IMG/VR virus record: IMGVR_UViG_3300045988_148972
DNA: 64,000 bases
Origin: a virus
Direction: 5' to 3' (one strand)
Positions 29,084 through 59,830 of this stretch are shown here, in pieces. The notes under the pieces are model-generated. The model was not told the origin of the DNA. It worked only from the letters and a program-made list of their open reading frames with translations, and made no database searches. How positions within the stretch are numbered: the first letter of the stretch is position 1; every line of letters starts with the position of its first letter. The position numbers and the translations under genes are program-made.

Positions 29084-29089
29084 AGGCTA

Positions 29090-29344: not shown

Positions 29345-29374
29345 TGGTTCGTTATTTGGCACAAATATAGATAT

Positions 29375-29425: not shown

Positions 29426-29440
29426 TCTGAATGAAAATAG

Positions 29441-29573
29441 TTCGGAAAGTTTGCACATTTAATCTATATATGTTCGGAAATTTTTCCCTATATGACGGAA
29501 TCTTTACCCATACACACGGAAACTTAGTACATATTGACGGAAAGTTTACCCCTAAAAACGGAAAGTTTGCACC
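29441..29573 (+). repeat. Iteron array A (6 copies)
   Basis: CGGAA(A/T)nnTT(T/A)nCC units with CGGAA at 29445, 29475, 29496, 29517, 29538 and 29559. The last five are 21 bp apart. Confidence 0.75.
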
Positions 29574-29772
29574 TTTATTAGTATAACTATTTGTTTTATA
29601 GCAAATTACGATTTACTATATATCTTATATCATAATATCATTAATAAAAGCAGACCGATATATTTTTTCTTTTATCCCTTATTTAAGAAACTATCGTTTC
29701 TTTATATTATAACATATAGATAATTATATAGATTCTGAAAATCATTGATTATTAGGTTTTTAAAAGCATGTA
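29574..29772. other. A+T-rich spacer of the putative origin
   Basis: About 200 bp, almost all A/T, between oppositely oriented iteron arrays. Confidence 0.6.
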
Positions 29773-29880
29773 GGTGCAATGATTCCGTCAATAGGTGAAA
29801 AGATTCCGTCAGTAAGGGAAATTATTTCGTGTAAAGGTGCAAACTTTCCGAACTATATAAAGGTGCAAACTTTCCGAACT
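29773..29880 (-). repeat. Iteron array B (5 copies, inverted orientation)
   Basis: GGTGCAAnnnTTCCG units ending at 29787, 29808, 29829, 29850 and 29876. AAAGGTGCAAACTTTCCGAACT is duplicated exactly. Confidence 0.75.
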
Positions 29881-29959
29881 TTACAATAAAAATCCATCAA
29901 AACCGGAAACGAAACTCCGGACGTGCGTTAATTATGGTATAAACTAAAAACTAAACAAC

Positions 29960-30832
29960 ATGAATTTGTCGAAAAGCATTTGCATGGCTGCCATCCTGAT
30001 TATGGCGGCTTGCAGCAAGGAAAACATCATCCATCCGACGGATATGGAGCAGACGAGTGAGAAAACGTGCAGGGTGTCTTTCCTCCCGGTGTTTATGGGA
30101 ATCGGACAGGGAGACATCAACCAGTGGAATAATTCACGTGCCGGCACGCTGGCCGAGCTGGCCACTACCCTCTCCTATTGGGATTACATGGACGGCGAGC
30201 AGATGCAGGCGGACACCGTTTCGCTTCCTTCTCCCATTACCCTGAACATGAAGTATGGAGCGCATCATGTGTACTTCCTGGCTCACAGCAGTACCGGAGG
30301 AAGTATGGAAGGCATGAAATATACTCCTGAGAAAGTAACTGAGACTTTCTGGGAGGATTTCTCTCTTCAAGTGGACGAGAATATGGCTTCGAGTCAGGAA
30401 CTGCAAATGAAGCGCGTAGTAAGCCGTGCCATGATCACCGTGAAAGATGCGTTTCCTGCCTCGGTGAAATCGGTACGGATGACGGTAGGCGGTCATCTTC
30501 GCACGCTGGATGTGACTACCGGTAACGGTGACGCAGATTCCGCATCCGACTATACGATTACTTGGGAGATAGGCGAAGAGTATGCGGGCCGTAGCGGGCT
30601 TTATTTCTCCGTGTTTACCTTCACTCCTACCGAGTCGGAAGAATTTGACGTGACGCTGAAAATAGAGGCTCTGGGAGCCGACGGGAAAATGCTTTATGGT
30701 GCACAGGCTTCCGGCGTTCCGCTTCTGAGGAACCGGTGCACAAACGCCATCTGCCGTCTGTTCAGTGGAAATACGGGAATCACTTTTTCTGATCCGGACG
30801 AATGGAATCCGGCCATCGAGATAGAAATGTGA
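29960..30832 (+). CDS. Lipoprotein, possibly fimbrillin-like (FimB/Mfa2-type) (290 aa)
   Basis: Lipobox ILIMAAC-S. Visibly more G+C-rich than its flanks. The family call rests on remembered general similarity only. Confidence 0.55.
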   Translation: MNLSKSICMAAILIMAACSKENIIHPTDMEQTSEKTCRVSFLPVFMGIGQGDINQWNNSRAGTLAELATTLSYWDYMDGEQMQADTVSLPSPITLNMKYGAHHVYFLAHSSTGGSMEGMKYTPEKVTETFWEDFSLQVDENMASSQELQMKRVVSRAMITVKDAFPASVKSVRMTVGGHLRTLDVTTGNGDADSASDYTITWEIGEEYAGRSGLYFSVFTFTPTESEEFDVTLKIEALGADGKMLYGAQASGVPLLRNRCTNAICRLFSGNTGITFSDPDEWNPAIEIEM

Positions 30833-30847
30833 CATCATTCAAAAAGC

Positions 30848-30881
30848 GAAGGGCAGAGAAGCGTGTGCTCCCCTGCCCTTT
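30848..30881. terminator. Hairpin between convergent genes
   Basis: AAGGGCAG ... CTGCCCTT stem. Confidence 0.6.
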
Positions 30882-30902
30882 CGGTGTATGAATTGTGCGG
30901 GA

Positions 30903-31403
30903 TTATTTCCCCACGATGTCTTTGTAGTATTTGTCAATGAACTCCTGCGCGGCTACATTCAGCAGGTCGATGACAAACACTAAGGTATCTTTCTTTTCCT
31001 TGTTACGGCCTTTGTTCATGCTTTTCTTAATGTCTTCCAGCTGCTCCAGCATGTCTTCTTCCAGATAGACATTCCGCATGATGCGTCCCTCTTTTTCATC
31101 TTTTCTAATTCTTTTTCGTATGCCGTTTATTTTTCGTTCTACTGCGGGTGATTCGCTTTTCACGGACTCTTTATCGGGCGCAGCTTCTTGTTCCGGACGG
31201 ATGTTTTCCTCTTCCTGGTTATTTGCTTCAACGCATGAGTTTTCAGCAGTGAAGGTAGCAGGAGATTCTTCCGTCTTTTCTTCTGTCTTTTCCTGAGTCG
31301 CAGCACTCTCCTCCCCTGCCTTCTCCGCGTTGGCACGTGCTTCCTCAATGCCCTGCCGGGCATCAAGCATTGTTTCATTCAGGTTGAATCGTTGTTTAGC
31401 CAT
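30903..31403 (-). CDS. Putative partition partner (centromere-binding, ParG/RHH-like C-terminus) (166 aa)
   Basis: Lies immediately downstream of parA. It has an acidic low-complexity centre. The C-terminus IMRNVYLEEDMLEQLEDIKK fits a strand-helix pattern. Confidence 0.4.
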   Translation of the reverse strand: MAKQRFNLNETMLDARQGIEEARANAEKAGEESAATQEKTEEKTEESPATFTAENSCVEANNQEEENIRPEQEAAPDKESVKSESPAVERKINGIRKRIRKDEKEGRIMRNVYLEEDMLEQLEDIKKSMNKGRNKEKKDTLVFVIDLLNVAAQEFIDKYYKDIVGK

Positions 31404-31414
31404 AATCGTGGGTT

Positions 31415-32197
31415 TTACTGGTTATCTAATCGTGATAGAATCTCTTTTGCCAGCTCCATGTAGTCGGCAGCTCCCGTGCAGTTGGGCGCAAAATCGAACA
31501 CGTTCATGCGCTGCGCAGGCGATTCGGCCAGCTGAATGTTCGTGCGGATGGTGGTATTGAACACCTTCCCAGGGAAATTCTGATTCATCTGTTCGTATGC
31601 CTGACGGTGAAGCGACAGACGCTTGTCGTAGCGTGACATGATGTAACCAAGGATTTCAAGTTTGGGATTCACCAGCTTTTTGATTTCCTCGTATTTTGCG
31701 GTAATCAGGCCCATTCCGTCCAGGGCAAATACTTCGCAGTTGATAGGAATCAGCAGGTAGTCAGAAGCCACCATTGCATTGATAGAAACCAGTCCGTAGT
31801 TCGGAGGGCAGTCAATCAGGATAAAATCATAATGGTCTTCCAGATTGTTCAGCATCATGCGCAGGATGTATTCGCGTCCGGTACGGCTCACCAGTTCCTG
31901 TTCGCACTGGTATAAGTTCGGGCGTGAAGGAATGAAGTCGAAGCTTTCTTCGTTTTCATTTTCACAGAACACACATTCCATGATGCTGGCGTTTCCGGAC
32001 ATGGCTTCGTAAAGGGTTTTACCATCCTTTTCCGTGGCCAGACGGAATCCCATCATTTTAGATGCGTTACCCTGTGCGTCGGCATCTATTACCAGCACAC
32101 GTTTACCAAGAGAATGTAAGGCTTTTGCCAGATTGACGGTGGTAGTGGTCTTCCCTACTCCACCCTTAAAGTTGAATGAAGAAATTGTAATTGCCAT
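31415..32197 (-). CDS. parA: ParA/Soj-type partition ATPase (260 aa)
   Basis: Deviant Walker A FKGGVGKTTT, Walker B VLVIDADAQ, and IDCPP. Start set at MAITISSF. Confidence 0.9.
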   Translation of the reverse strand: MAITISSFNFKGGVGKTTTTVNLAKALHSLGKRVLVIDADAQGNASKMMGFRLATEKDGKTLYEAMSGNASIMECVFCENENEESFDFIPSRPNLYQCEQELVSRTGREYILRMMLNNLEDHYDFILIDCPPNYGLVSINAMVASDYLLIPINCEVFALDGMGLITAKYEEIKKLVNPKLEILGYIMSRYDKRLSLHRQAYEQMNQNFPGKVFNTTIRTNIQLAESPAQRMNVFDFAPNCTGAADYMELAKEILSRLDNQ

Positions 32198-32261
32198 ATC
32201 AAATGTTTTTGTTTTATTACACTGCAAAGATAGTCGTTTTTTTTCATTTCCGCCATAAATA

Positions 32262-46029: not shown

Positions 46030-47022
46030 ATGGATACGACAAACTACCAGATAAATCTTCATGCTCTTCCAGACAGTTGGAACAGGCTTTCCACCAGAGA
46101 GCTAGAAGAAGTGAATAGACTTTACATAGAAAGGAATATAGAAGTTGAGGAGGAACAGTCTGAAAGGCTTTTTAAGTTAAAATGCTTTATGCTTTTTCTT
46201 AGTCTAAAAATTGTGAGATTTACTACTACAGACGAGAATGGAGATACAGTGTTCTTCTTCCGAAGAAAAGGGTTTGTTCATCGTTTTGAAAGAATACCTA
46301 TGAGGGCGTGGCAAGTAAATCAGTGGATTGATCAGAAACTAGGTTTTCTGGATAAACCTTTTGGGCGAACGATTACTCCCTATAAAATTGTCCGTTTGCG
46401 TATGGGGACCCTGTGTTTGAAGGCTCCAAAGGACGTAATGTCCGATGTGACTTTTGCGCAATATCAGTCTGCTCAGAATCTGCTTATTATGTACTGGGAA
46501 ACTCAGAAAGTGATTCAAACTCTTTTTAGAAACAAGTCTAGTCGTACAGCTATTCGCATGCAGATGCGCCGCATGGAACAGGTGCGTTGCCGGTTTTTGG
46601 CCACTCTGTTTAATGAATCAGTGAGAGAAACAGGAGAAATACGAGAAGGAAGATACATGCGTAAATATAAACGTCGTGTTTGGTCATTTTATTCCGGACA
46701 GATACAGAAAAATGCTCGCTGGTTCCGACCGGTAGAAGGCCGTATGTTTCCAGTCATGGTTCAGTATTTTCAAAGTGTGCAAGAAGCCTATGCTCGTATG
46801 TATCCTGAACTGTTTACTTCAAACGGTAAAAAGAACGGCATCTATAGTCCAATAAAGATAGAGGTAGAGATGATAAATAATATTATGAAGTACCAGGGAT
46901 TTGATGACTACGATGCAGTATATGATAGTGAGGCTGTACGTATTCTGGGAATTATGAATGCCATGGCAAAGGAAGCCAAAGAAATTGAAAAAATGAATCA
47001 GAAATACAAAACAGGGAAATGA
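46030..47022 (+). CDS. Hypothetical basic late protein (330 aa)
   Basis: ORF after the late motif. Overlaps the fibre gene start (ATGA). Confidence 0.65.
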   Translation: MDTTNYQINLHALPDSWNRLSTRELEEVNRLYIERNIEVEEEQSERLFKLKCFMLFLSLKIVRFTTTDENGDTVFFFRRKGFVHRFERIPMRAWQVNQWIDQKLGFLDKPFGRTITPYKIVRLRMGTLCLKAPKDVMSDVTFAQYQSAQNLLIMYWETQKVIQTLFRNKSSRTAIRMQMRRMEQVRCRFLATLFNESVRETGEIREGRYMRKYKRRVWSFYSGQIQKNARWFRPVEGRMFPVMVQYFQSVQEAYARMYPELFTSNGKKNGIYSPIKIEVEMINNIMKYQGFDDYDAVYDSEAVRILGIMNAMAKEAKEIEKMNQKYKTGK

Positions 47023-50000
47023 TAACTGACTACCAGAATAACGGATACCGAATTTCATATCAGGGAGTGTCCATGATAGAAAATGCGCTTGACAACCCTA
47101 ATCTAATTCAGATAGGGGTTTCGTCAGGATGTACCATTATGGTAGCTCCAGAAAAAGATTACGGAATAGACTATCTTCCAAATGGTGAATACAAGACTTG
47201 GAAACTAACAGGATATAACACGCGCCTAAACCGAACGGAAGAACATTATATTTATGCTCGTCTAACCAGAAACTCGGATACTGCTATGATTCTTTTTTCC
47301 GTTAACGAATATGCTATTGACGGAAGCATTGGTGGGCAGAATCCTAGCGAATATTACTATTATATACGAATAGGGAAGATTACTGCAACCGACAAGTTGG
47401 AAGAAGCTACTCTTGATCGAGAGATTACATTGGATTACGGTAAACTTTCTACACCTGCTGGGCAAACGCAGGATACAGCCGGATGGAAGGAGCTATTTAG
47501 TGTAACTGCAGATGATCTTATTCGTCCATTGAAAAAGTTCACTTCCTACATTGTACAAGGTACACTATCTATTATTGGGAAGTTGGTTATCAACGATAAG
47601 CAGATTTCAGATGTAGCAAGACAGGTAGATGAAGGGGAATTTTCTGCCAGTGATGAACTTATACCAACGACGGCTTTACTTGTAGGGAAATATATAACAA
47701 AGATTAGAGAATATTTTTTAAGTAAAGATAGGGAAGATCAGACTAAATTCTTGCTAAGGCTTATTGGAGGAGCAGAATTTGGAACTTATGCTTCAGGAAT
47801 ATCAGGAGCACAAATTTCTTCCGATGGAGCAGCAGAATTACTCAATTTATTGCTTCGTGGTGCTTTAACTATTGGAGATTATCAGGTTAAAAAATCTGGT
47901 GCTAAAATAGACGAGCAGGGCGTTGCAGACTTACTTTCTATACTTGTACGAAACGGTATGGAATCAGCCAACTTTTCTACTGGTGCTTTAGGTACTGGAT
48001 TCTGTCTGAAAAAAGATGAAAATGGCGACAGTTACCTGGAAGTAGACCGTATGCTTGTCCGAAAGGTAGCTACATTTATACAGTTGCTTATCCAGCAGAT
48101 CAAGCATGTTGGCGGTCAGATTATTCTAACTCCGGCATCTATGTCGTGTGTTAAGGTAGAGGATAAAGGAGATTTCTATCGTTGCTACTTTGAAAACACG
48201 GACGGAGAAAAGACAATAGAGCAGGAATTTGTGGTCGGTGATTTGGCTAGAGCGCAGACTTTTAACGTAAAGGAGGGTGTTAATGAAAATGTAACTAATA
48301 CCTACTATTGGCGTGCTGTCGTAGGAACAGGAGATAACTATATAGATTTATCCAAAACAGATTGCGATGCAGGTTCTACCGAGCCAAAAGCTGGCGATGA
48401 TATTGTACAGTTAGGAAATAAGTCTGACGCTACACGTCAGGCAGCTATTATCTTGTCTGCATACGGCAATGATGCACCTTATTTCAAGTTATATCGTGGT
48501 ATTAATTCCTATTCTTTGGACGGAAAAGAATTTGTTTCTTTTTCACGTTCAGAAGTAATGATTATTGCCGATGCAATAAAATTCAGTTCCGGAGAAAGCG
48601 TAAAGGACTATATCGACAACGCGGTAGGGGAAGTCAATACAAAAGTAGACGATGCTATATCTGATTTATCTGAAAACATTTCATTTGTAAATCAGTTATC
48701 TAAGGATTTAGAAGCTGTTAAAAACCAAATAGACGGTGCTATTGAAACATGGTTTTATGAACCAGTTCCTACATTAAGTAACGAACCTGCTGTAAATTGG
48801 ACTACAAACGAAGATAAGAATGTACATTTAGGTGACTTGTATTATGACGGAAACGGAAAGGCTTACCGTTTCCAGATGTCAGGTACTTCTTATGTATGGC
48901 AGGTAATAACCGATTCTGATATCACAAAAGCTTTGGCTGACGCTAAAAAAGCACAAGACACAGCAGATGGAAAGAGAAGGGTATTTGTAACTACCCCATC
49001 TAATGCTTCAGTGTATGATATTGGAGATTTGTGGGTTAATGCAACATACGGAAGCTACAAGAATGATTTGCTTCGATGCAAAACGTCTAAACAAGCAAAT
49101 GCTCAGTTTTCTATTGAGCATTGGGAACTTGCAACAAGATACACAGACGATACTAAGGCTAATCAGGCAATAGAGGATGCGGCTAACGCAAAAGCAGCAG
49201 CAGACAACGCACAAACTGATGCAAATGAAGCAAAAGAAAGATTAGATAGCTGGGCTTCTGATGGTTCTATTTCTCCAACGGAAAAACAGTCACTAAAAGA
49301 AGAGATATCAAGGATTGATGCAGATAAAACACAGATTGCAAACGGATATGCTAAGTATAACTTAGATACTCCTACAAATTACAACAATGCACACACGGCT
49401 TATCGTGCTGTGTTGGTAACTCTTACTGCATCTTCGCCTGAAACAATCACTATCCCGTCCGATTTTGCTACAAAGCAAACTGCATATTATACACAGAGAA
49501 CAAATGCTTTAACTGCTATTTCAAATGCTGCACGTGATTATGCGCAAGGTATCGCCAACGACTTAAATACCTATAAGCAAACTGTAAGTTCTCAATTTGA
49601 GCAGACCAACAACAGCATTACTGCTGCTGTAACTTCTTCAAAGGAATACACAAATAATGCTATTAATAATATTCAGATTGGAGGAAGAAACTATTTTGCT
49701 TTTTCTAGGACTAAAATAAAAAATACTAGTGGGACAGGAAAATTTGATAAAAGTATTAATGGAGCTGTTTTAACAACAGGAAGTAATTCTACAAGCAAAG
49801 GAATTGTAAGATTCAATAACTTCGGTTTAACTGATGCGGGTGATTATACACTTTCATGTGAAATAAAAGCAACGTCTGACGTAACTATAAAAATAGATAT
49901 ATGCGATTATACAATTCTTAATAATATAGCTGTTACAAACCAATACAAAAAAATAAAATTAACAGGAAGAGTTGCTGCTTACATAAACGGTGTTGGTGGA

Positions 50001-52736
50001 TATTACGGATTTGTAGACTTTGATGAAGTTTCTGATATTCCTGATGGTGTAAAAATTTACATAAAGAATTTCAAATTAGAATCAGGCAATAAAGCTACCG
50101 ACTGGTCGCCTGCCCCCGAAGATTCAGAAAACGCTTTGACAGAATACAAAAAAGAAGTCACTGCACAATTCAGTGTATTGGAAGGCGAAATTAGCAGCAA
50201 GGTTTCTTCCACAGAAATGACCACAATTAAACAAGAAATTCTTAATTCTGCTGCAACTGATGCAGCAAATAAGGTTAATAGTATTCAAGTAGGAGGAAGA
50301 AACTATGCTTTAGGTACAGGCACTAAGAAGGAAACTACTCCAAACAATTCTAGCAACCAACTATATAATCTATATGTTTTAAAAAAGGAATTGGGAGGAA
50401 ATCATATATTTGTATCTGCTAAAGTTAAATTCGAGAATTGTACATTTAGCAGTAACAGTAAAGCTAGCCTACAAGGTAATGGTGCTATGTTTGGTTGGTC
50501 ACCTAATTATACCTTTATTGCAGGAGGAGGACAAAACAAAGAATATATTGTTAAATGGGAAACAGACTTACAGAAACCATCATCAGATAATACAGCCTAT
50601 ATACAATTAAGATTAGATTATATTAATGGTGGAAAAGTTACAGTTTCTGAATTTAAAGCAGAAATAGGCAATAAAGCAACAGACTGGTCACCTGCTCCCG
50701 AAGATGCAGACTCTAAATATGCTACAATTACGACTGTCGAATCTATGCAAACTGAGATTACGCAGTTAAGTAGCGAAATTTCACTCAGGGCTTATAAGTC
50801 AGAAGTTACTGCCGTTCAGAACAACCTTAATCAGACTAATAACAATTTGTCAGCGCTGACTACACGTGTAAGCAAAGCTGAGATAGCATTGCAGCCCGAT
50901 AATATTTGGATTGGCATTTCTTCAAAAGTAACAACAACAACAAAGGTAAACAATATTGTTCCTGATAGCTGCTTTGATGATGCTAATTACAGCTTACTTT
51001 ACGGTGGTGGTTCACGAGTTAGTGCGGCAACTGCTAACAATAGCTGTCCTACAAGTTATTGTATGAAGTCTACTCAACGTGATGTGCAAGCTAGAAATTA
51101 CGTATCTGTTTCAGAAGGAGAAAAATATTACATTTCTGCCTATGTAAATGCTCAATTAGCTAATTATACTGTAAGAGTTGGACTTATATTAAAAAAATCT
51201 GACGGGTCTACAACTTGGATGTATAATAACGACACTTCTGTTGCTTCAAAAACTAGTGGATGGCAAAAAATATCAGGTTATATTACAATTCCTGCTGGAT
51301 ATATAAAGGCTGGTATTTGGTTTCAAATTGATGGAGGTTCAAACTTTGGTTCGGCTTACTTTACAAAGGTATATGCATATAAGGTGGATGAATCCGTTAA
51401 TCAAAACTATGCTTTATTGACAAGCAATGAAAAAAGATTGACTACTTTTAATAATGTAGCAAATCAAAGAAATACATTATACAAAACATCCGGTTTAAGA
51501 AAAGGAGATATAGTGACTATTTCATTTGAGTATGAAGCAAGTAATCTTATTTGGGACACAACAGAAAATTCATATTTTAGGGTTCAGTTTGACGATAAAT
51601 TTGGTTGGACTGCTTATAATATTCCTAATTTAAAATCTAATGGTACAGGTAAAATTATTACTCCTCCCTTAACTTTAGGTGGTAGTGATACAAATATCAA
51701 AGATTCTAATATTGAAATGTGTTTTTATTACATTTCTTCTGTGTTACAAGACAATAAACCAATAGGTTACTTCCGTGTTTGGAATATGAAAGTAGAAAAA
51801 GGCGAAAGGTCAACACCATGGAGTGCTGCACCTAGCGATTATTCCACAACAGAAGAGATTAAGGCTGGTATGCAGATAACCGACAAGGGATTCAACTTCT
51901 TCGGTCAGGAGTTTAACTTCTCAGGACGTATATCAGTCGGAGATTTAGACCCGACAATTATCGAAAATGGTTATTTGCGTGCAAGTCTTATTAATGCCGA
52001 TACACTTGTAGTTAAAACACTTAATGCTTCAAATACAGATGGTGTAAGTACACTTGTAAACAAAGACGGTCTAAAAATGACGCAAGGAAGCAATGTGCTA
52101 TTTAAGCTGACATCCAATAAATCTACAGTAGGAACAACACGATATTACGCACAAATGGACCTTACAACGGCTTATTCGGATGGTTCTACTTTGCAAGGTA
52201 CATTAACGCCCGAATCTTTATTTCTTCGTGGTAAGACTAAAAGCACTGACAAGACATTGAAAACTACATTGATGTATAATGGCTTGATGATTTATGATGA
52301 AAATGGTACAGGTCTTACTGTTAACACAAAAGGAATACAGCTTACATATTGTGGAAAAACACAAGGAGGTAGTAATGTTTGTGCTGTTGTTCATTATGCT
52401 AAGTGTATATTCTCTGTCTACATTACGGCGCAGGGACGTGTATCATATAATATAGGAGGAAGCATTCCTAATTCATCCGGAACACCAATTGAGTTTTCCG
52501 TAACAAGGACAGGCGCAGGAAGATATAAAGTAACTCATAATATCAATGATTTAAGATATATGGGACAAATCACTGCTTTGTCAAATGGAAATTTGACTGT
52601 AGGTATTTTTGAAAATAGAAATAGCACATCATTCGAGTACTCTACTATTAGCTTTAACGGAAGTGGATGGTATGCTCAAGATTGTGGTGTATATTTATCT
52701 ATATATTACGAATCGCCTAAACTGTTTACATTCTGA
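47019..52736 (+). CDS. Giant modular tail fibre / host-specificity protein (1905 aa)
   Basis: Supported by length, coiled-coil Ala/Gln/Asn-rich stretches, and repeated units IQ(I/V)GGRNY + about 140 aa + GNKATDWSPAPED (50085-50123 and 50667-50705). A degenerate third copy GERSTPWSAAPSD lies at 51801-51839. Confidence 0.8.
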   Translation: MITDYQNNGYRISYQGVSMIENALDNPNLIQIGVSSGCTIMVAPEKDYGIDYLPNGEYKTWKLTGYNTRLNRTEEHYIYARLTRNSDTAMILFSVNEYAIDGSIGGQNPSEYYYYIRIGKITATDKLEEATLDREITLDYGKLSTPAGQTQDTAGWKELFSVTADDLIRPLKKFTSYIVQGTLSIIGKLVINDKQISDVARQVDEGEFSASDELIPTTALLVGKYITKIREYFLSKDREDQTKFLLRLIGGAEFGTYASGISGAQISSDGAAELLNLLLRGALTIGDYQVKKSGAKIDEQGVADLLSILVRNGMESANFSTGALGTGFCLKKDENGDSYLEVDRMLVRKVATFIQLLIQQIKHVGGQIILTPASMSCVKVEDKGDFYRCYFENTDGEKTIEQEFVVGDLARAQTFNVKEGVNENVTNTYYWRAVVGTGDNYIDLSKTDCDAGSTEPKAGDDIVQLGNKSDATRQAAIILSAYGNDAPYFKLYRGINSYSLDGKEFVSFSRSEVMIIADAIKFSSGESVKDYIDNAVGEVNTKVDDAISDLSENISFVNQLSKDLEAVKNQIDGAIETWFYEPVPTLSNEPAVNWTTNEDKNVHLGDLYYDGNGKAYRFQMSGTSYVWQVITDSDITKALADAKKAQDTADGKRRVFVTTPSNASVYDIGDLWVNATYGSYKNDLLRCKTSKQANAQFSIEHWELATRYTDDTKANQAIEDAANAKAAADNAQTDANEAKERLDSWASDGSISPTEKQSLKEEISRIDADKTQIANGYAKYNLDTPTNYNNAHTAYRAVLVTLTASSPETITIPSDFATKQTAYYTQRTNALTAISNAARDYAQGIANDLNTYKQTVSSQFEQTNNSITAAVTSSKEYTNNAINNIQIGGRNYFAFSRTKIKNTSGTGKFDKSINGAVLTTGSNSTSKGIVRFNNFGLTDAGDYTLSCEIKATSDVTIKIDICDYTILNNIAVTNQYKKIKLTGRVAAYINGVGGYYGFVDFDEVSDIPDGVKIYIKNFKLESGNKATDWSPAPEDSENALTEYKKEVTAQFSVLEGEISSKVSSTEMTTIKQEILNSAATDAANKVNSIQVGGRNYALGTGTKKETTPNNSSNQLYNLYVLKKELGGNHIFVSAKVKFENCTFSSNSKASLQGNGAMFGWSPNYTFIAGGGQNKEYIVKWETDLQKPSSDNTAYIQLRLDYINGGKVTVSEFKAEIGNKATDWSPAPEDADSKYATITTVESMQTEITQLSSEISLRAYKSEVTAVQNNLNQTNNNLSALTTRVSKAEIALQPDNIWIGISSKVTTTTKVNNIVPDSCFDDANYSLLYGGGSRVSAATANNSCPTSYCMKSTQRDVQARNYVSVSEGEKYYISAYVNAQLANYTVRVGLILKKSDGSTTWMYNNDTSVASKTSGWQKISGYITIPAGYIKAGIWFQIDGGSNFGSAYFTKVYAYKVDESVNQNYALLTSNEKRLTTFNNVANQRNTLYKTSGLRKGDIVTISFEYEASNLIWDTTENSYFRVQFDDKFGWTAYNIPNLKSNGTGKIITPPLTLGGSDTNIKDSNIEMCFYYISSVLQDNKPIGYFRVWNMKVEKGERSTPWSAAPSDYSTTEEIKAGMQITDKGFNFFGQEFNFSGRISVGDLDPTIIENGYLRASLINADTLVVKTLNASNTDGVSTLVNKDGLKMTQGSNVLFKLTSNKSTVGTTRYYAQMDLTTAYSDGSTLQGTLTPESLFLRGKTKSTDKTLKTTLMYNGLMIYDENGTGLTVNTKGIQLTYCGKTQGGSNVCAVVHYAKCIFSVYITAQGRVSYNIGGSIPNSSGTPIEFSVTRTGAGRYKVTHNINDLRYMGQITALSNGNLTVGIFENRNSTSFEYSTISFNGSGWYAQDCGVYLSIYYESPKLFTF

Positions 52737-52771: not shown

Positions 52772-53050
52772 ATGAAAAAACTGAATTTTAAAGCCGTTCC
52801 GACAAGGGACATCGAAGGCAACCTAGAGCCTAGAGATATTTCAAAAGAACTAGGAAACTTTATCTATCGTGAAACCTCCGACTTGGGAGAATTGGATTTG
52901 GCACAAAGAATCTACAAGGACGGAGAAGTGGAAGTCAATGAGAGTGAAGTAGAAATCATCCGAAGATACATGAACCGCGGATATAAGGCATTTGTAAAGA
53001 AAGCCTTCGAGGAAATGGTTTCGGATGTTCAAGAAGTTCAATCTTTATAA
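52772..53050 (+). CDS. Hypothetical protein (92 aa)
   Basis: ORF starting at MKKLNFKAV. Confidence 0.5.
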   Translation: MKKLNFKAVPTRDIEGNLEPRDISKELGNFIYRETSDLGELDLAQRIYKDGEVEVNESEVEIIRRYMNRGYKAFVKKAFEEMVSDVQEVQSL

Positions 53051-53063
53051 ATCAGATAAATAT

Positions 53064-53708
53064 ATGGATGTAAAAAATCAGTCTTACGGAAAAGTTATCA
53101 GTGCTTCTTATCAGCACTACATTACACTGACAGAAGTAGAAGATAAGTACAAGCCTATCTTCACTACTATCACAGTACCGTCATGGGAAGGGCTAGACCA
53201 ATTTGTTGAGATAGACGAAGCAGAAGCGGAAAGAATACGTACAGTCAAGAACGCTGCCAAAGGGAATGTAGAATATCCAGAAGAGCTGGTTAATCAAATG
53301 ATTGGGCTGTTTGCTACTTCTATCAACACTATGAGCCTGACAGACGAACAAGCATTGCAATTCAAGAATTTATACCCAGCATGGGAAACATTTATTAACC
53401 AGAAACTTGAAAAAGACTACAAGGTATTGTACGAAGATAAGCTGTACAAGGTTAAACAGACTATCGAAAAGGTATTGCAAAATCAGCCACCTTCAATAGA
53501 CACAGCAGCTTTGTATGAAGAAATCAATGAAGCTAATGCAGGCACACTTGAAGACCCTATCCCTTACAACACCAACATGGAGTTGTTTGAAGGGAAATAT
53601 TATTCTCAGAACAGCGTCACTTATAAATGTACTCGTAACACAGGACAGCCAGTCTATGAAGACCTATCAGCACTAGTAGATATATATGTCGAACAAGTAG
53701 AACAATAG
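53064..53708 (+). CDS. Late protein with a CBM5/12-like segment (214 aa), paralog of 59123-59830
   Basis: YPAWETF...YKVLYEDKLYKVKQ...AGTLEDPIPYN...GKYYSQNSVTYKCTRNTGQPV aligns with the C-terminus of 59123-59830. Confidence 0.55.
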   Translation: MDVKNQSYGKVISASYQHYITLTEVEDKYKPIFTTITVPSWEGLDQFVEIDEAEAERIRTVKNAAKGNVEYPEELVNQMIGLFATSINTMSLTDEQALQFKNLYPAWETFINQKLEKDYKVLYEDKLYKVKQTIEKVLQNQPPSIDTAALYEEINEANAGTLEDPIPYNTNMELFEGKYYSQNSVTYKCTRNTGQPVYEDLSALVDIYVEQVEQ

Positions 53709-54914: not shown

Positions 54915-55760
54915 ATGGCTATAGAAGATCAAGATGGTGTAAAAATTAGTGATATGCCCGATTTAAGTTCAATAACGGGTAAAGAATATTTTCCTGTAGT
55001 TGATTCTGCTGGTACAAACAGAAAGGTTGCTACATCATTGCTTGCTACAAAAACCGAACTTGAAGGCAAGGCGGATAAATCCGAAATAGTTGATATGGCA
55101 ACAAAGACTTGGATAGGTCAGCAAGGTTTTTTGACAGAGCATCAAGATATATCTCAGCTAGCTACGAAACAAGAAGTTACACAAGGATTGTCGGGAAAAC
55201 AAGATACACTTCAAAGCGGTACTACTATTAAAACCATTAATGGGCAGTCAATACTCGGTTCGGGTGACTTGGAGATACAGACGGACACGGGAGGTATTTC
55301 GGATGCTCCATCTGACGGAAAGAAGTATGTCCGCAGCAACGGGAACTGGGTAGAAGAAACAACGGTAGACACATCTAATTTCGCAACTAAGACTGAACTT
55401 GAAGGCAAAGTAGATGATTCTGAAATTGCAGATATGCTGACTAAAACAGAGGCAGCTTCTACTTATCAGCCTATAGGAGATTACTTAACTGCTATCCCTG
55501 ATGAATATGTAACAGAAACAGAGTTGAACGGTAAAGGATATGCAACTACTACGCAATTATCCGATGCAGTAGCAGATAAACTAACTAAGACGCAAGCGGA
55601 TGGGTATTATCAGGCTACAGGTGATTATGCGTTAAAATCGGAGATCCCCGATGTAAGCGGTTTTATCACCTCTACTCAGGCAGACGAGAAGTATGCTACA
55701 TTAGAGCAAATTGGAAACATTGATACTATATTGGATGAAATAAATGGGGAGGTGATATAA
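54915..55760 (+). CDS. Fibre-like protein with repeated ATKTELEGK-D-SEI-DM-TKT units (281 aa)
   Basis: Two near-identical repeat units and a Thr/Gly/Asp-rich composition. Confidence 0.6.
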   Translation: MAIEDQDGVKISDMPDLSSITGKEYFPVVDSAGTNRKVATSLLATKTELEGKADKSEIVDMATKTWIGQQGFLTEHQDISQLATKQEVTQGLSGKQDTLQSGTTIKTINGQSILGSGDLEIQTDTGGISDAPSDGKKYVRSNGNWVEETTVDTSNFATKTELEGKVDDSEIADMLTKTEAASTYQPIGDYLTAIPDEYVTETELNGKGYATTTQLSDAVADKLTKTQADGYYQATGDYALKSEIPDVSGFITSTQADEKYATLEQIGNIDTILDEINGEVI

Positions 55761-57178
55761 TGGGAACGACAGCAGACAAACTTAATAAGTTAAAAGAAAG
55801 CAAAGCCGCCATAAAGGCAGCCATTGAAGCAAAGGGTGTAGAAAATGTAGGAGAAATCCTTTCAGAATACCCGGCTAAAATAGCAGCCATTCCGACAGGG
55901 GATGAATACGCCCTTGAATCGCAAATGCTGATACTGCCGGTACGCTCAACCACCATTACCACCAGTGAAGGAAAGACAGCGGCAATAGCTACAAACGACC
56001 ACATCAAGATTGTAGATACCAACCTGGAGCATTACACAGTAAAAGAATGGAACGACCGAAGCGTGGCAAATGGCTTTGACAACGAACTTATTGCTCCTCC
56101 TGTAGGCTTTTCTCTGGAATGTAACGGAATCAGAACGATATTGTATTGGCCGTGGCAGGGAGAATATTACGCCACGTCCGGCAGTACAAGCAAAGTATCA
56201 AACGGAATACAGCATTCAGTCTATGAATACGACCAGATGACCGGAGCCAGGGAAGGGACTGATTATCACGGCACGGCAGATGAAAACCTTGGTACTCACG
56301 CCGTAGGAAGTCACTTTGCTGCAGACTGGAGCGTAACAGTAACGGAAGATGACAAGCTTGAACTTTATAGCGGTAACACCAAACAACGCTGGATAATGGA
56401 AAAGAATTGCGGCAATGTAGATGTTATGATAGCGAATAATTACGCCGAACGTCTTGAAGCCATGTATGTACAAAATGAATGGCTTCGCCACAGGTTTGCC
56501 ATCTGTAGCGGCATAACATCTTCTGAAGCAGAAGGCACAATAACCGATGTGGAAATCCTAAATTCATCAGGCGTACAGGCTCAGGTAGGTGAAGATATGT
56601 TTTTCTTCGTAAACAGCCAGAACACAGGTTTGAAAGCAATGTACAATACAAATAATAAGTATTCAGTAAACAACGGATATTATTTCAAACCTGAATACGC
56701 TGAATGGCTGTACGAACAGCAGAAAACAAACGGTGTAAACATGAACGACACCGGAGTAAACTCCGCCAAACGACCTCTTCTTTCTCCGGGCGCAAAAGGA
56801 GCGGAAGCAATTACCGTTGACGGGTATTGGTATATCATTACCCCATACATAAGCAGACCGGGAAATTCCAGTACAAATTACGACTGGAATATGGCAGATT
56901 CTCATGCTGTATATTACATCAAAACACTTGAAGGGAAGTATATGGCAGGAGAGAAAGAATTATATCCATACTGGACGAACAAAAGCATAATTTCAGGATT
57001 GATAAACTATCTTAACAGTTATGAAAAATGGGGCATACCTGGCGTTCTGGGCGGCAACGTCTGGAGCTGTGTCCGCAACCTTGGCAACTACGCATGGTAT
57101 GTGTACATGGGCAATGGTACCTTGAGCAACTTCAACACGATCAACACCTTTAGTGTGGTGCCGGCCTCCGCTTTTTGA
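55760..57178 (+). CDS. DGR target protein (fibre/receptor-binding candidate) with a C-terminal variable region (472 aa)
   Basis: The VR occupies codons just before the stop. The C-terminus GGNVWSCVRNLGNYAWYVYMGNGTLSNFNTINTFSVVPA resembles DGR-variable CLec/DUF1566-type ends. Confidence 0.85.
   Translation: MGTTADKLNKLKESKAAIKAAIEAKGVENVGEILSEYPAKIAAIPTGDEYALESQMLILPVRSTTITTSEGKTAAIATNDHIKIVDTNLEHYTVKEWNDRSVANGFDNELIAPPVGFSLECNGIRTILYWPWQGEYYATSGSTSKVSNGIQHSVYEYDQMTGAREGTDYHGTADENLGTHAVGSHFAADWSVTVTEDDKLELYSGNTKQRWIMEKNCGNVDVMIANNYAERLEAMYVQNEWLRHRFAICSGITSSEAEGTITDVEILNSSGVQAQVGEDMFFFVNSQNTGLKAMYNTNNKYSVNNGYYFKPEYAEWLYEQQKTNGVNMNDTGVNSAKRPLLSPGAKGAEAITVDGYWYIITPYISRPGNSSTNYDWNMADSHAVYYIKTLEGKYMAGEKELYPYWTNKSIISGLINYLNSYEKWGIPGVLGGNVWSCVRNLGNYAWYVYMGNGTLSNFNTINTFSVVPASAF
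57044..57170 (+). repeat. DGR variable repeat (VR)
   Basis: A 127 bp segment matching TR at an offset of +644, with 10 mismatches, all opposite TR adenines. Confidence 0.9.
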
Positions 57179-57186
57179 TTTATCTC

Positions 57187-57205
57187 AGCCGTGCGGAGCA
57201 CGGCT
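57187..57205 (+). other. GC-rich hairpin just 3' of VR
   Basis: AGCCGTGC-GGA-GCACGGCT. There is no counterpart after TR. Confidence 0.7.
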
Positions 57206-57255
57206 TATCAATTTTTGAATTAAAATATATTAACATTTAATACGCGACAATAGAA

Positions 57256-57609
57256 ATGAACAGATCCGGGAGGAAACATTTGGACGCACCGATTATTCAG
57301 GATGTGATACGCCTGAATAATTGTCTCATAGAAATCAACAGCAAAGCTTATAAGGTCATAAGCAGAACATATATAGACCCTATGCTGAAGCAAGGCGCAC
57401 TGCTTTTCAGCTACGCTATGCGCCAGGTCCGTGGAATGGACTATTATAAAAGAGCTACAGAGCTGACATACGAATTGCAGTTCGGAATATATCTGATAGT
57501 GGCTCTTGGAGGATGCAGCAAAGAGAAAGCGTCTGTAATAGACGTTTTGTGCGATAATATTTTATCTTCGCTTGCGAGGATAAAGAATGTCAGATCCGAA
57601 AAGTCTTGA
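57256..57609 (+). CDS. avd: Accessory variability determinant (Avd)-like protein (117 aa)
   Basis: Small, basic and predicted helical. It lies between the target and TR/RT, as in canonical DGRs. Confidence 0.6.
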   Translation: MNRSGRKHLDAPIIQDVIRLNNCLIEINSKAYKVISRTYIDPMLKQGALLFSYAMRQVRGMDYYKRATELTYELQFGIYLIVALGGCSKEKASVIDVLCDNILSSLARIKNVRSEKS

Positions 57610-57612
57610 ACT

Positions 57613-59085
57613 ATGTCGGCAGAACTGTTTAATGATAAAGGTCCCTGTGCTTGCAGTGAGCAAGCTATTCCGATTAACAGGGCAGAAGTTCTGGGCGGCA
57701 ACGTCTGGAGCTGTGTCCGCAACAATGGCAACAACGCATGGTATGTGAACATGGGCAATGGTAACTTGAACAACAACAACACGAACAACACCTATAGTGT
57801 GGTGCCGGCCTCCGATTTATCAGAAAAAGTGTCCGCCTGGATAGCTGCCGAAAGTGATTGCTATAAAAACAAGCACGCATCGCTCGAAGCGGCATCGTTT
57901 CATTTCAACCTGTCGCGTATTTATGAATTGATAAACAGAATAAACAATGGCTACCAGCCACAGACAAGCATCTGTTTTGTCCTCGACTACCCCGTGTATA
58001 GAGAAGTTTTCGCCGCCAACTACACCGACCGTATCGTACACCACTACGTCGCCCCGATGCTTGGCGAGATATGTGAGAAAGTACACGAAGCCAATGGCGA
58101 TGTAAGCCACGGCAACCGTATCAGACACTCCGCATCTACAGCCATCGAGCAGATACAGCGGAATATCCGTGATGTAACGGACGGCTACACAAAGGAAGCC
58201 TTCGTAGCCACAATGGATATATCAGGCTTCTTTATGTCGATAGACAAGGAAACCGCATACCGCATCTTGCGGAAATACGCCGATATGTACTACGACAAAC
58301 CCGATAAAGAAGAAAAACTCTCTCTGCTTCACACCCTGATACAACACAATCCGGCCACAGACTGCGAGCGACATTCCGACATAAGAATGTGGGATAAAGT
58401 CCCGCCCAACAAAAGCCTTTTCGGACTTCCACCCGACAAAGGACTCCCGATAGGAAACTTCTATTCCCAACTCCTCGCAAACCTTGTGATAGCCGAAGCT
58501 GATGCGGAAATGATAAAAACCGGAGTGAAATACACACGGTTTGTAGATGATATATGCGTGGTGGCAGAAACATCAGCCGAAATAATCCATGCCCGGAAAG
58601 TATTCATTAAAGCGATCGGACGGCTGAAACTAAAAGTCCATCCCGATAAATTCTACATACAGCCGGCCTCACACGGAGTAAAGTTCTGCGGAAAGGTAGT
58701 AAAGCTGAACCGTATCTACATATCCAACCGTACGGTACACGCCCTTCATACAGCAATAGAAGAATACAGCCGGATGCCGTCGTACAGCAATGCCGTACAC
58801 GTCATGCAAAGCATAAACAGCTATTTCGGGCTGATGAAAGGAACAGCGTCCTTCAATATTAAAAAGCGTATAGCCGGGAAAGTCCTGGAAACATTCTCCG
58901 AATGGCTGTATTTCCGCAACAAAAACGGCCGGTTCGTCTGTGTGTTGAAAAGCAAGTACAAACCTAACAAGACATCATATCTAAACCTGAACGACTATGC
59001 TTCCATATTCAGACCGCCGACAAGGTGCTATCCGAAAAGGAGGCTGCCCTTACAACTCCGCGAACCTGCATATCTGCGAGCATAA
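57613..59085 (+). CDS. DGR reverse transcriptase (490-aa ORF; the true start is uncertain)
   Basis: YTDRIVHHYV, the DGR-type LPIGNFYSQLLAN (I/LGxxxSQ), and the catalytic FVDD box. Confidence 0.9.
   Translation: MSAELFNDKGPCACSEQAIPINRAEVLGGNVWSCVRNNGNNAWYVNMGNGNLNNNNTNNTYSVVPASDLSEKVSAWIAAESDCYKNKHASLEAASFHFNLSRIYELINRINNGYQPQTSICFVLDYPVYREVFAANYTDRIVHHYVAPMLGEICEKVHEANGDVSHGNRIRHSASTAIEQIQRNIRDVTDGYTKEAFVATMDISGFFMSIDKETAYRILRKYADMYYDKPDKEEKLSLLHTLIQHNPATDCERHSDIRMWDKVPPNKSLFGLPPDKGLPIGNFYSQLLANLVIAEADAEMIKTGVKYTRFVDDICVVAETSAEIIHARKVFIKAIGRLKLKVHPDKFYIQPASHGVKFCGKVVKLNRIYISNRTVHALHTAIEEYSRMPSYSNAVHVMQSINSYFGLMKGTASFNIKKRIAGKVLETFSEWLYFRNKNGRFVCVLKSKYKPNKTSYLNLNDYASIFRPPTRCYPKRRLPLQLREPAYLRA
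57688..57814 (+). repeat. DGR template repeat (TR)
   Basis: The invariant, adenine-rich copy (many AAC codons), located at the 5' end of the RT ORF. Confidence 0.9.
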
Positions 59086-59122: not shown

Positions 59123-59830
59123 ATGAAGTACGCAAAAATCGAAAACGACGAATTCCTCATTAAGGAATTTGAAAAGGGTATCGAGGTAGGCGGCAAGCTT
59201 ACCGAAGAAGAAATAATCGCACAAGGTTATAAACCTTTATGTGAAGTAGAAAAACCTGATGGAGCAGAAGGTTTTGTATATAAAGATTACGGAACCTGTT
59301 ATGTGCAGATATGGAAGATGCCAGGCGAGGATATACGTCCGGATGAAATATGGACTTCCGATAGTGGGATCATGCCTGAATTTTCCGATTTGCAAAGGCT
59401 GCAAAAAGACATTGCTATGATAAACGAGAATATTAATTCACTTAACCTTACCAGTAATGAAGCTTTTGAAGTTAAAGAGTTTTATCCTGAATGGTCTGCC
59501 GATTCTGTAGAAGTAAAGAAAGGTGAAAGATATCAGCTAAACGGAAAGCTTTATGAAGTAGTACAAGATCATACCACACAGGCTAACTGGTCACCTGAAA
59601 ATCAATCTTCTTTATGGGTTGAAGTTACAGAAAGCCATGCAGGTACATTTGACGATCCAATACCGTATAACGAAGAGTTAGATCCGATGTGGCAGGGAAT
59701 GGTACTTGAAGAAGGGAAATATTATACTCAGGGTGGAGTAGTATATAAGTGTATAAGAAATACCGGAAACAAGGTTACACAGAATCTTGCCGATTTGGTT
59801 TCCGGAGGATTTGTAGAACAAGTTAAATAA
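59123..59830 (+). CDS. Late protein with a CBM5/12-like segment (235 aa), paralog of 53064-53708
   Basis: YPEWSADS...ERYQLNGKLYEVVQDHTTQANWSP...AGTFDDPIPYN...GKYYTQGGVVYKCIRNTGNKV. Confidence 0.55.
   Translation: MKYAKIENDEFLIKEFEKGIEVGGKLTEEEIIAQGYKPLCEVEKPDGAEGFVYKDYGTCYVQIWKMPGEDIRPDEIWTSDSGIMPEFSDLQRLQKDIAMINENINSLNLTSNEAFEVKEFYPEWSADSVEVKKGERYQLNGKLYEVVQDHTTQANWSPENQSSLWVEVTESHAGTFDDPIPYNEELDPMWQGMVLEEGKYYTQGGVVYKCIRNTGNKVTQNLADLVSGGFVEQVK

What the first reader, a model, noticed from the sequence alone, without database searches (positions are those of the whole stretch)
55760..59085. Complete diversity-generating retroelement aimed at a fibre-cluster protein
The last 127 bp of coding sequence in ORF 55760-57178 (VR, 57044-57170) recur 644 bp downstream (TR, 57688-57814). 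My base-by-base alignment gives 10 mismatches. Every one lies opposite a TR adenine (VR positions 57080, 57081, 57089, 57104, 57120, 57126, 57131, 57132, 57141, 57150). TR encodes NNGNNAWYVNMGNGNLNNNNTNNTYS and VR encodes NLGNYAWYVYMGNGTLSNFNTINTFS, so the variable residues are AAC/AAT codons, as in known DGRs. Three further A-only mismatches directly upstream (57040-57043 against 57684-57687) may extend the repeat. Between the copies lies a 117-aa Avd-sized ORF. After TR comes an RT with the DGR-specific IGNFYSQ motif and an FVDD box. The order target-avd-TR-RT matches Bordetella phage BPP-1. The target is the last gene of a fibre cluster, so it probably supports receptor-binding diversification. 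That would be notable in what appears to be a plasmid-like Bacteroidota phage.
Basis: partly seen in the sequence, partly recalled or inferred. Interest (0 to 1): 0.85.

Follow-up and report, generated by a model that had tools for sequence, protein, structure and literature searches.

The report
Active phage diversity-generating retroelement
This is a complete and evidently active diversity-generating retroelement: a reverse-transcriptase cassette that rewrites the tip of a gut phage's tail-associated protein. It is a well-known kind of system, here with an unusually divergent helper protein and target protein.

Summary
VR 57044-57170 and TR 57688-57814 are 127-bp direct repeats 644 bp apart with 10 mismatches, all opposite TR adenines (P about 1e-6).

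Related genomes make the case decisive.
- In 28 genomes with about 95% identical RT, every VR is different, while the TRs are nearly constant.
- 431 of 436 TR/VR mismatches lie at TR adenines.
- VR entropy is 1.25 bits at A-templated positions against 0.05 elsewhere.
- Rare non-A TR polymorphisms, and one 3-nt TR deletion, are mirrored in that genome's own VR, so copying from TR to VR is ongoing.

The parts also fit.
- The RT carries the DGR-type IGxxxSQ motif and an FVDD box.
- The 117-aa ORF has no Pfam hit but folds confidently (pLDDT 93) into a four-helix bundle. Its best structural matches are Avd and its family, including BPP-1 Avd.
- A covarying hairpin follows VR.
- The target's variable C-terminus gives only weak but consistent hits to the Lcl_C/DUF1566 lectin-type domain.

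The receptor-binding role is inferred from gene position only.

One architectural detail stands out. TR lies in frame inside the RT open reading frame, which starts 4 nt after the avd stop. This holds in eight divergent lineages.

Verdict: a new member of a known kind, of moderate to low interest.

The parts
55760..57178 (+). DGR target gene (472 aa). Its start overlaps the stop of the fibritin-like gene by 1 nt (TAATG). It belongs to a protein family with no Pfam, PHROG or NCBIfam match.
   Evidence: ORF list. 409 metagenomic homologues, none with a Pfam domain. No family hit. No tblastn hit in GenBank phages or PLSDB.
57044..57170 (+). Variable repeat (VR). It encodes the last ~42 residues but two of the target.
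   Evidence: 10 of 10 mismatches to TR lie at TR adenines. 28 distinct VRs in 28 related genomes, with entropy 1.25 bits at A-templated positions against 0.05 at other positions.
57153..57170 (+). GC-rich invariant 3' end of VR (GTGTGGTGCCGGCCTCCG), analogous to the GC-rich part of IMH. Homology to TR stops at 57171.
   Evidence: Read from the sequence. 57171 is fixed as C in all relatives. Polymorphisms in this element are matched between the TR and VR of the same genome. The IMH definition comes from PMC5758913.
57187..57205 (+). Hairpin AGCCGTGC-GGA-GCACGGCT, 16 nt after VR. It probably corresponds to the DGR target-recognition hairpin/cruciform and may also act as the terminator of the target gene.
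   Evidence: DNA fold centroid. Terminator-like scan hit. Hairpins with different stem sequences, and the same GGA loop in L031 and L032, occupy the equivalent place in distant DGRs.
57256..57609 (+). avd-like accessory gene (117 aa, pI 9.5), a divergent four-helix-bundle protein.
   Evidence: AF2 pLDDT 93.2, four helices. The top Foldseek hits are all from the Avd / 23S-rRNA-IVS family: 2gsc TM 0.80, 4dwl BPP-1 Avd TM 0.71-0.77, 8ub7/8ub8. hhalign against canonical Avds gives 60% probability, E 8.8e-5 over 104 columns. Homologous ORFs sit in the same position in L031 and L032. pI.
57688..57814 (+). Template repeat (TR), with 36 adenines and 14 AAY codons. It lies in frame inside the RT open reading frame.
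   Evidence: TR entropy across 28 genomes is 0.04 bits, within the most conserved stretch of the cassette.
57613..59085 (+). Reverse transcriptase gene (open frame of 490 aa; the RT-homologous part starts at about residue 70, about 57817). The ATG at 57613 is 4 nt after the avd stop.
   Evidence: RVT_1 3.4e-14. PHROG 1423 1.9e-50. GLPIGNFYSQLLANL and FVDD motifs align with bRT GIPIGSLTSQLFANV and YMDD. The nearest phage relatives are RTs of Bacteroides phages with DGRs.
54915..55760 (+). Context: fibritin-like fibre protein directly upstream of the target.
   Evidence: Fibritin_C and PHROG neck-whisker/tail-fibre hits.
47019..52736 (+). Context: 1905-aa tail-fibre-like protein.
   Evidence: PHROG tail and tail-fibre families.

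Best explanation
This is a complete, currently active diversity-generating retroelement of the avd-TR-RT architecture. It is carried by an uncultured gut phage of roughly 100 kb, probably infecting Bacteroidales, that has plasmid-type maintenance genes.

Mechanism, by analogy with Bordetella phage BPP-1: a transcript covering avd-TR-RT supplies the TR RNA. The RT, working with the Avd-like pentamer-type helper, copies TR into cDNA and misincorporates opposite template adenines. The cDNA then replaces VR at the 3' end of gene 55760-57178. The GC-rich VR end and the downstream hairpin guide this step.

Because the adenines sit in 14 AAY and 8 other codons, up to about 4e20 protein variants are possible without any stop codon. 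They all fall in the C-terminal, probably lectin-type (Lcl_C/DUF1566-like), ligand-binding surface.

Shown here: the repeat pair, the adenine specificity, the directionality from TR to VR, ongoing diversification across the lineage, the RT motifs and the Avd fold.

Inferred: the biochemical steps; that the target is a virion receptor-binding protein, and therefore that the pay-off is host-range or receptor adaptation; and the host taxon.
For: Repeat and adenine specificity: (P = 1.2e-6).

Population evidence:
- 28 related genomes have 28 distinct VRs but only 12 near-identical TRs, and 431 of 436 mismatches lie at TR adenines.
- Entropy is 1.25 bits at A-templated positions against 0.05 bits elsewhere, with TR at 0.04.
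- Further metagenome contigs show the same pattern.
- Non-A TR variants are mirrored in the cognate VR, including the window's own three private TR bases.
- A TR codon deletion is mirrored in the VR of L010.
- A median of 41% of TR adenines are mutated per VR, close to the ~50% reported for Bacteroides and Bordetella DGRs (10.1101/2024.11.15.621889).

RT: RVT_1. The IGxxxSQ and F/YxDD motifs are shared with bRT and with 10 of 12 related RTs. Scores against group II intron, retron and Drt models are far below cut-off.

Avd.

Hairpin.

Same cassette order in BPP-1 and in 12 distant relatives, all with A-biased TR/VR pairs.

Target C-terminus: Lcl_C is the only Pfam hit (E 0.14 for the TR-restored sequence; 5e-5 to 2.5e-3 for the targets of related DGRs). 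The Lcl C-terminal domain 8q4e is the top hit both by Foldseek (E 0.24, probability 0.82) and by profile search (E 0.06, aligned to the very C-terminus).

Fibre context. Lysis genes downstream.
Against: - No read-level or experimental evidence from this genome itself. Activity is inferred from differences between genomes.
- The lectin-type fold of the target is not established. All three hits are below significance, and the AF2 model is poor in that region (mean pLDDT 63.6 overall, 30-83 in the C-terminal blocks).
- The target has no recognisable virion or tail domain and no homologue in 50,697 deposited phages, so the receptor-binding role rests on gene order.
- Avd is not recognised by Pfam, NCBIfam or PHROGs.
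- No formal RT phylogeny was made.
Confidence: 0.93

Rival explanations
1. The DGR is real and active, but the target is not the host-receptor-binding protein. It could be a virion decoration or adhesin binding some other ligand, such as mucus or capsule glycans, or a non-structural protein.
For: The target has no tail-fibre, PHROG or Pfam match and no homologue in deposited phages. Phage DGR targets outside structural modules are documented for Quimbyvirus (PMC8008677). CBM_5_12 carbohydrate-binding paralogues flank the block.
Against: The gene is translationally coupled (TAATG overlap) to a fibritin-like fibre gene and lies directly after a 1905-aa tail fibre and before the lysis genes. This is the same position as mtd in BPP-1.
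Confidence: 0.25
2. The cassette is a fossil DGR. It diversified VR in the past but is now inactive in this genome.
For: Only one genome is in the window and no reads are available. The RT box is FVDD rather than the YxDD of bRT.
Against: - The RT, avd and TR are intact and are the most conserved part of the locus.
- FVDD is shared by all eight lineages of the sub-clade, each with an A-biased VR.
- Genomes about 95% identical overall each have a unique VR.
- The window's own private TR bases are present in its VR, so transfer post-dates those substitutions.
Confidence: 0.04
3. The repeat is an ordinary duplication or gene-conversion tract next to an unrelated RT (retron, group II intron or defence RT), and the adenine bias is a coincidence.
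For: The NCBIfam models that match best by name are group II intron and retron models.
Against: Those matches score 76 and 54 bits against cut-offs of 300 and 235. 431 of 436 mismatches across 28 genomes lie at TR adenines. The DGR-type IGxxxSQ motif is present. An Avd-fold helper is present.
Confidence: 0.01

Closest known systems
Bordetella phage BPP-1 DGR (mtd-avd-TR-brt), the experimental prototype
   Same: The gene order is the same: target(VR)-avd-TR-RT on one strand. VR lies at the 3' end of a gene that follows the tail-fibre genes. The repeats are ~130 bp with adenine-only differences. The VR end is GC-rich and followed by a GC-rich inverted repeat (PMC5758913). The helper has the Avd fold (TM 0.71-0.77 to 4dwl). 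The RT motifs IGxxxSQ and xxDD are present.
   Different: - The RT is only 24% identical over 246 aa, has a ~45-aa insertion between motifs, and is 490 aa against 328 aa.
- BPP-1 has 144 nt between TR and brt. Here TR lies inside the RT open frame and there is no spacer.
- The target is unrelated to Mtd and, if anything, is of the Lcl_C/DUF1566 type rather than the Mtd type.
DGR of Bacteroides phage BS-TP1 (PQ571274; PMC12694917)
   Same: It is the closest RT among isolated phages (33.5% identity). The phage is of similar size (111.7 kb), with no chromosomal homologues reported. The order is the same, with a four-helix-bundle gene and then an RT CDS that spans TR. A small gene follows the RT.
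   Different: The BS-TP1 target is a protein of over 2000 aa, whereas here it is a separate 472-aa protein. There is no DNA-level similarity. Neither the target nor the avd-like protein of the window has a tblastn match in that phage.
DGR of Bacteroides uniformis phages Bacuni_F1/F2/F4 (PMC8143477)
   Same: The RT is ~32% identical. The target is annotated as DUF1566, with bAvd and then TR upstream of the RT.
   Different: There, TR sits in a separate 82-aa ORF and the RT is short (377 aa). These are siphovirus genomes of about 40 kb.
Legionella pneumophila DGR / CLec2 (DUF1566-type) target class of Wu et al. 2018
   Same: The VR peptide pattern W-S-x..-N-A-W-x-V-x..-G resembles the DUF1566/Lcl_C class. 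Lcl_C and the Lcl C-terminal domain structure 8q4e are the only hits. Wu et al. note that matches of this class are typically weak.
   Different: All hits here are below significance. This element is carried by a phage rather than a chromosome, and no MSL accessory gene is seen.

Membership tests
Diversity-generating retroelement (DGR) | TR/VR direct repeat pair whose differences are confined to TR adenines | tested here: met
   10 of 10 in the window (P 1.2e-6). 431 of 436 across 28 related genomes.
Diversity-generating retroelement (DGR) | RT of the DGR type (motif 4 I/LGxxxSQ and a catalytic xxDD box; not a group II intron, retron or defence RT) | tested here: met
   LPIGNFYSQ and FVDD align with bRT PIGSLTSQ and YMDD. 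Group II intron, retron and Drt models score far below their cut-offs. All detectable relatives sit next to A-biased TR/VR pairs. No formal phylogeny was made.
Diversity-generating retroelement (DGR) | VR inside a protein-coding target, with adenines placed so that mutagenesis changes amino acids without creating stops | tested here: met
   35 of 36 TR adenines are in codon positions 1-2. There are 14 AAY codons. No stop is reachable and none is seen in 28 VRs.
Diversity-generating retroelement (DGR) | Unidirectional information flow from TR to VR (mutagenic retrohoming), ongoing | tested here: met
   This is comparative evidence only. TR is invariant and VR is unique in every genome. Non-A TR polymorphisms and a 3-nt TR deletion are mirrored in the cognate VR. 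Direct assay is not possible with these tools.
Diversity-generating retroelement (DGR) | IMH-like GC-rich VR 3' end, differing from TR just downstream, followed by a GC-rich inverted repeat | tested here: met
   18-nt GC-rich shared end, with divergence from 57171. 8-bp hairpin at 57187-57205, with covarying counterparts in distant DGRs. Function was not tested.
Avd (accessory variability determinant; Pfam bAvd PF22296 / 23S_rRNA_IVP PF05635) | Sequence match to the family model | tested here: not met
   The window protein has no Pfam hit even at E <= 10. Among 28 homologues, one matches PF05635 at E 0.023.
Avd (accessory variability determinant; Pfam bAvd PF22296 / 23S_rRNA_IVP PF05635) | Small basic four-helix-bundle protein encoded between the target and TR; fold as in 4dwl | tested here: met
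   117 aa, pI 9.5. AF2 pLDDT 93, four helices. The top 14 Foldseek hits are all 2gsc, 2rld, 4dwl or 8ub7-8ube, with TM 0.56-0.85. hhalign to canonical Avds gives E 8.8e-5 and probability 60%. Pentamer formation and RT binding cannot be tested here.
C-type-lectin-fold DGR variable protein, Lcl_C/DUF1566 (CLec2) class | Variable C-terminal domain with the CLec fold or an Lcl_C match | tested here: inconclusive
   Pfam Lcl_C E 0.14, 12.9 bits against a cut-off of 34.9. Foldseek top hit 8q4e E 0.24 over 47 columns. Profile against PDB, top hit 8q4e E 0.06. The model is of low confidence in this region. The three results agree in direction, but none is significant.

The most novel reading that the evidence does not exclude
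In this RT sub-clade the RT would really be translated from the ATG next to the avd stop. The enzyme would then carry a ~70-residue N-terminal extension encoded by TR and its flanks, an Asn-rich copy of the target's variable strands. The same RNA stretch would serve as mRNA and as reverse-transcription template, so translation through TR could gate or couple retrohoming.

The evidence does not exclude this reading. In eight divergent lineages, TR is in frame with the RT, an in-frame ATG sits at or near the avd stop, and length differences in the TR-RT junction all preserve the frame. TR overlapping the annotated RT ORF is already a catalogued architecture (DiGReF group 3, PMC3521204). What would be new is a functional role for it.
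Probability: 0.15. Interest if true: 0.5.

Novelty: new member of a known kind. Interest (0 to 1): 0.3.

Why it matters
DGRs are common in gut Bacteroidales phages, so finding one is not surprising. This one is useful as a clean natural example. Dozens of near-identical genomes each carry a different VR, and TR substitutions and an indel are copied into VR. Together these show ongoing retrohoming without any experiment.

It also adds two things to the catalogue. The first is a target-protein family with over 400 metagenomic members and no Pfam domain or deposited phage homologue. The second is an Avd subfamily that sequence models miss but structure prediction recovers. This is a reminder that DGR surveys relying on Avd or CLec HMMs under-annotate such cassettes.

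The element sits on a phage with plasmid-type partition genes. It also has the TR-inside-RT-ORF layout, which could be used to ask where DGR RTs start and whether translation of TR matters.

Tried and rejected
- Megablast of the cassette and of 50 kb of the window against GenBank phages found no match. This lineage is not deposited, so no annotation could be borrowed.
- An exact 33-mer from the TR/VR 5' end found no hit in IMG/VR, because the window carries private TR/VR bases. The protein-based locus search worked instead.
- Pfam, PHROGs and NCBIfam gave nothing for the target or the 117-aa ORF. PDB sequence search also gave nothing for either.
- The full-length AF2 model of the target has mean pLDDT 63.6 and is poor at the C-terminus. 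Foldseek against PDB and BFVD gave nothing significant.
- The GTDB genome scan returned only distant relatives (34-36% RT identity) in Bacteroidales MAGs, so the host is not pinned down.
- tblastn of the target against PLSDB plasmids found no match.
- Extending the repeat by the three upstream adenines remains undecided, because ordinary polymorphism adjoins them.
- A second VR elsewhere in the window was considered and rejected: none was found on either strand.
- Reading the hairpin as a terminator only was considered and rejected. That reading is possible, but the covarying stem with a conserved GGA loop in distant DGRs argues for a DGR role as well.

Full report
**1. The observation**

- VR 57044-57170 and TR 57688-57814 differ at 10 positions, each with A in TR.
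- The repeat finder reports the same pair as the only long repeat in the region.
- TR has 36 A in 127 nt, so the chance that 10 random mismatches all hit A is 1.2e-6.
- 35 of the 36 adenines are in codon positions 1 or 2 of the VR frame.
- TR encodes 14 AAY codons plus 8 other A-containing codons. No A-to-N change can make a stop, and about 3.6e20 peptides are reachable.
- The next mismatch (57171, A in TR, C in VR) is C in all relatives, so it marks the end of homology.
- The three A-opposed mismatches just upstream (57040, 57042, 57043) exist and vary among relatives. Ordinary polymorphism adjoins them, so an extended repeat is undecided.
- No second VR exists in the window.

**2. Evidence from related genomes**

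A protein-guided scan of IMG/VR with the RT found about 30 contigs (55-122 kb) with about 95% identical RT, plus ten more distant cassettes. In 27 of the close relatives plus the window:
- All 28 VRs are different, whereas there are only 12 TR variants, differing by single bases.
- 431 of 436 TR/VR mismatches are at TR adenines.
- Column entropy within VR is 1.25 bits at the 36 A-templated positions and 0.05 bits at the 91 others.
- TR has 0.04 bits and lies in the most conserved stretch of the whole cassette.
- A median of 41% of adenines are changed per VR. This is close to the ~50% density reported for Bacteroides and Bordetella DGRs (10.1101/2024.11.15.621889).

Where a TR carries a rare non-A substitution, that genome's VR carries the same base.
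- Examples are GCCGGCC to GCCCGCC or GTGTCCGCC, TATAGTG to TATGGTG, and TAGTGTG to TAGCGTG.
- The window's own three private TR bases behave the same way.
- In L010 the TR has lost one AAC codon and its VR has lost the same 3 nt, with 19 of 19 mismatches at A.

A DNA-pattern scan of metagenome contigs added further unique VRs with the same behaviour. This is the comparative approach that Benler et al. used for Quimbyvirus (PMC8008677). It shows directional TR-to-VR copying that continued after these genomes diverged. It is not read-level evidence from one population.

**3. The parts**

*RT (57613-59085).*
- It matches RVT_1 and PHROG 1423.
- It aligns with BPP-1 bRT at 24% identity. GLPIGNFYSQLLANL lies opposite GIPIGSLTSQLFANV, and FVDD lies opposite YMDD.
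- The IGxxxSQ signature is shared with 10 of 12 related RTs and with bRT.
- Matches to group II intron, retron and Drt models are far below their cut-offs.
- The nearest RTs in GenBank phages (about 33% identity) belong to Bacteroides phages with described DGRs: BS-TP1 and Bacuni_F1/F2/F4.

*Accessory gene (57256-57609).*
- No Pfam, NCBIfam, PHROG or PDB sequence match was found, and only 33 representative relatives exist among 1.84 billion proteins.
- Clearly homologous ORFs occupy the same slot in cassettes whose RTs are only 43-46% identical.
- A profile of the family aligns end to end with canonical Avds (BPP-1, BS-TP1, Bacuni_F1 and two others) at E 8.8e-5 and probability 60%.
- The protein is basic, pI 9.5. 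Wu et al. give 9.5 +/- 0.7 for Avds.
- AlphaFold2 gives a four-helix bundle at pLDDT 93.2.
- Its 14 best PDB matches are all members of the Avd / 23S-rRNA-IVS family, including BPP-1 Avd alone (4dwl) and Avd in the DGR ribonucleoprotein (8ub7, 8ub8, 8ube), with TM 0.7-0.85.
- I therefore call it a divergent Avd. Membership by sequence model fails, while membership by fold, size, charge and position holds.

*cis elements.*
- VR ends in an 18-nt GC-rich block shared with TR, after which the two diverge. This is the arrangement described for IMH and IMH*.
- Sixteen nt further on lies an 8-bp hairpin with a GGA loop (57187-57205).
- Distant cassettes have hairpins at the same place with different stem sequences, and L031 and L032 have the same GGA loop. 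This is covariation in favour of a conserved structure.
- The hairpin may also terminate the target transcript.

*Target (55760-57178).*
- It has 409 metagenomic homologues, none with a Pfam domain, and none in GenBank phages or PLSDB.
- The family consensus is conserved except at the A-templated residues.
- The full-length model is mediocre.
- Three independent weak signals point the same way. Lcl_C (DUF1566) is the only Pfam hit to the TR-restored C-terminus (E 0.14), and it hits the targets of related DGRs at 5e-5 to 2.5e-3. The Legionella Lcl C-terminal domain 8q4e is the top Foldseek hit (E 0.24). The same entry is the top profile hit in the PDB (E 0.06), aligned through to the terminal Phe.
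- None of these is significant, so the lectin-type fold is likely but unproven.

**4. Context**
- The target's start overlaps the stop of a fibritin-like gene (54915-55760), which follows a 1905-aa tail-fibre-like gene.
- After the RT come a CBM_5_12 protein, small membrane proteins and an Amidase_3 endolysin.
- Elsewhere the window encodes a ParA-type ATPase, a DnaA_N-domain protein, ArdA and two DNA methylases.
- Only distant RT relatives occur in GTDB genomes, all Bacteroidales MAGs, so the host is inferred only at that level.

**5. Mechanism**

By analogy with BPP-1, the steps are: an avd-TR-RT transcript; Avd-assisted, adenine-mutagenic reverse transcription of TR; and replacement of VR guided by the GC-rich end and the hairpin.
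- Shown here: adenine specificity, direction and recurrence.
- Inferred: the biochemical steps and the receptor-binding pay-off.

**6. An architectural detail**
- TR lies inside the RT open frame, in the codon phase of VR. The first ATG (57613) is 4 nt after the avd stop.
- The same holds in eight divergent lineages: the window, L031, L032/33/38, L035/L046, L040, L036, L037 and BS-TP1.
- Each has an in-frame ATG overlapping or within about 20 nt of the avd stop, and each has junctions of different length that all keep the frame.
- A sister group (L034, L045, L047, Bacuni_F1) has TR in a separate short ORF before a shorter RT.
- BPP-1 has a 144-nt untranslated spacer instead.
- TR overlapping the annotated RT ORF is already a listed architecture (DiGReF group 3, PMC3521204). 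Whether the extension is translated or matters is unknown.

**7. Verdict**

This is a new member of a well-known kind, notable for clear natural evidence of activity, an Avd and a target that sequence libraries miss, and the TR-in-RT-ORF layout. Interest is moderate to low.

Noticed in passing
window 57610-57830; L031, L032, L033, L035, L036, L037, L038, L040, L043, L046: TR is embedded in frame in the RT open reading frame. The first ATG sits at or beside the avd stop codon (57613, against the stop at 57607-57609). This is conserved in eight divergent lineages despite junction indels. A sister group has a separate TR ORF and a shorter RT.
   Followed up: partly
window 53025-53708 and 59123-59830: Two paralogous genes (38% identity over 141 aa; the same PHROGs 30034 and 27545) bracket the fibre/DGR block. 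The second carries a CBM_5_12 carbohydrate-binding module. The ORF list extends the second back to 58997, overlapping the RT 3' end, but the likely start is ATG 59123.
   Followed up: partly
window 27620-32227 (- strand), 5010-5552, 13435-14232, 22390-24105: Plasmid-style maintenance and anti-restriction genes sit in a phage context: a ParA-type ATPase (31415-32227), a protein with a DnaA_N domain (27620-29083), ArdA (5010-5552), an N6/N4 methylase and a C5 methylase. No integrase was seen among the ORFs scanned.
   Followed up: partly
L010 6001-6124 and 6642-6765: In one relative the TR has lost one AAC codon and its VR has the identical 3-nt deletion, so an indel has been propagated from TR to VR.
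   Followed up: yes
L049 (metagenome contig OJKY01000005.1, 306,517 bp): One contig carrying this cassette is 306 kb, about three times the usual ~100-112 kb. This could mean integration into a host chromosome, a concatemer or a misassembly. Only 14.5 kb of it was held.
   Followed up: no
window 18763-19683, 19918-20649, 15683-16378, 12846-13430: A cluster of nucleotide-modification-type genes: DUF1599 'nucleotide modification associated domain 1', DUF4494, a PAPS-reductase domain protein and an Rv2179c-like 3'-5' exoribonuclease. This suggests DNA-modification functions in this phage.
   Followed up: no
table (protein clusters P0001, P0042): Single 90%-identity clusters of the target protein hold 892 and 673 distinct member sequences. 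This is consistent with very many VR variants in public metagenomes.
   Followed up: no
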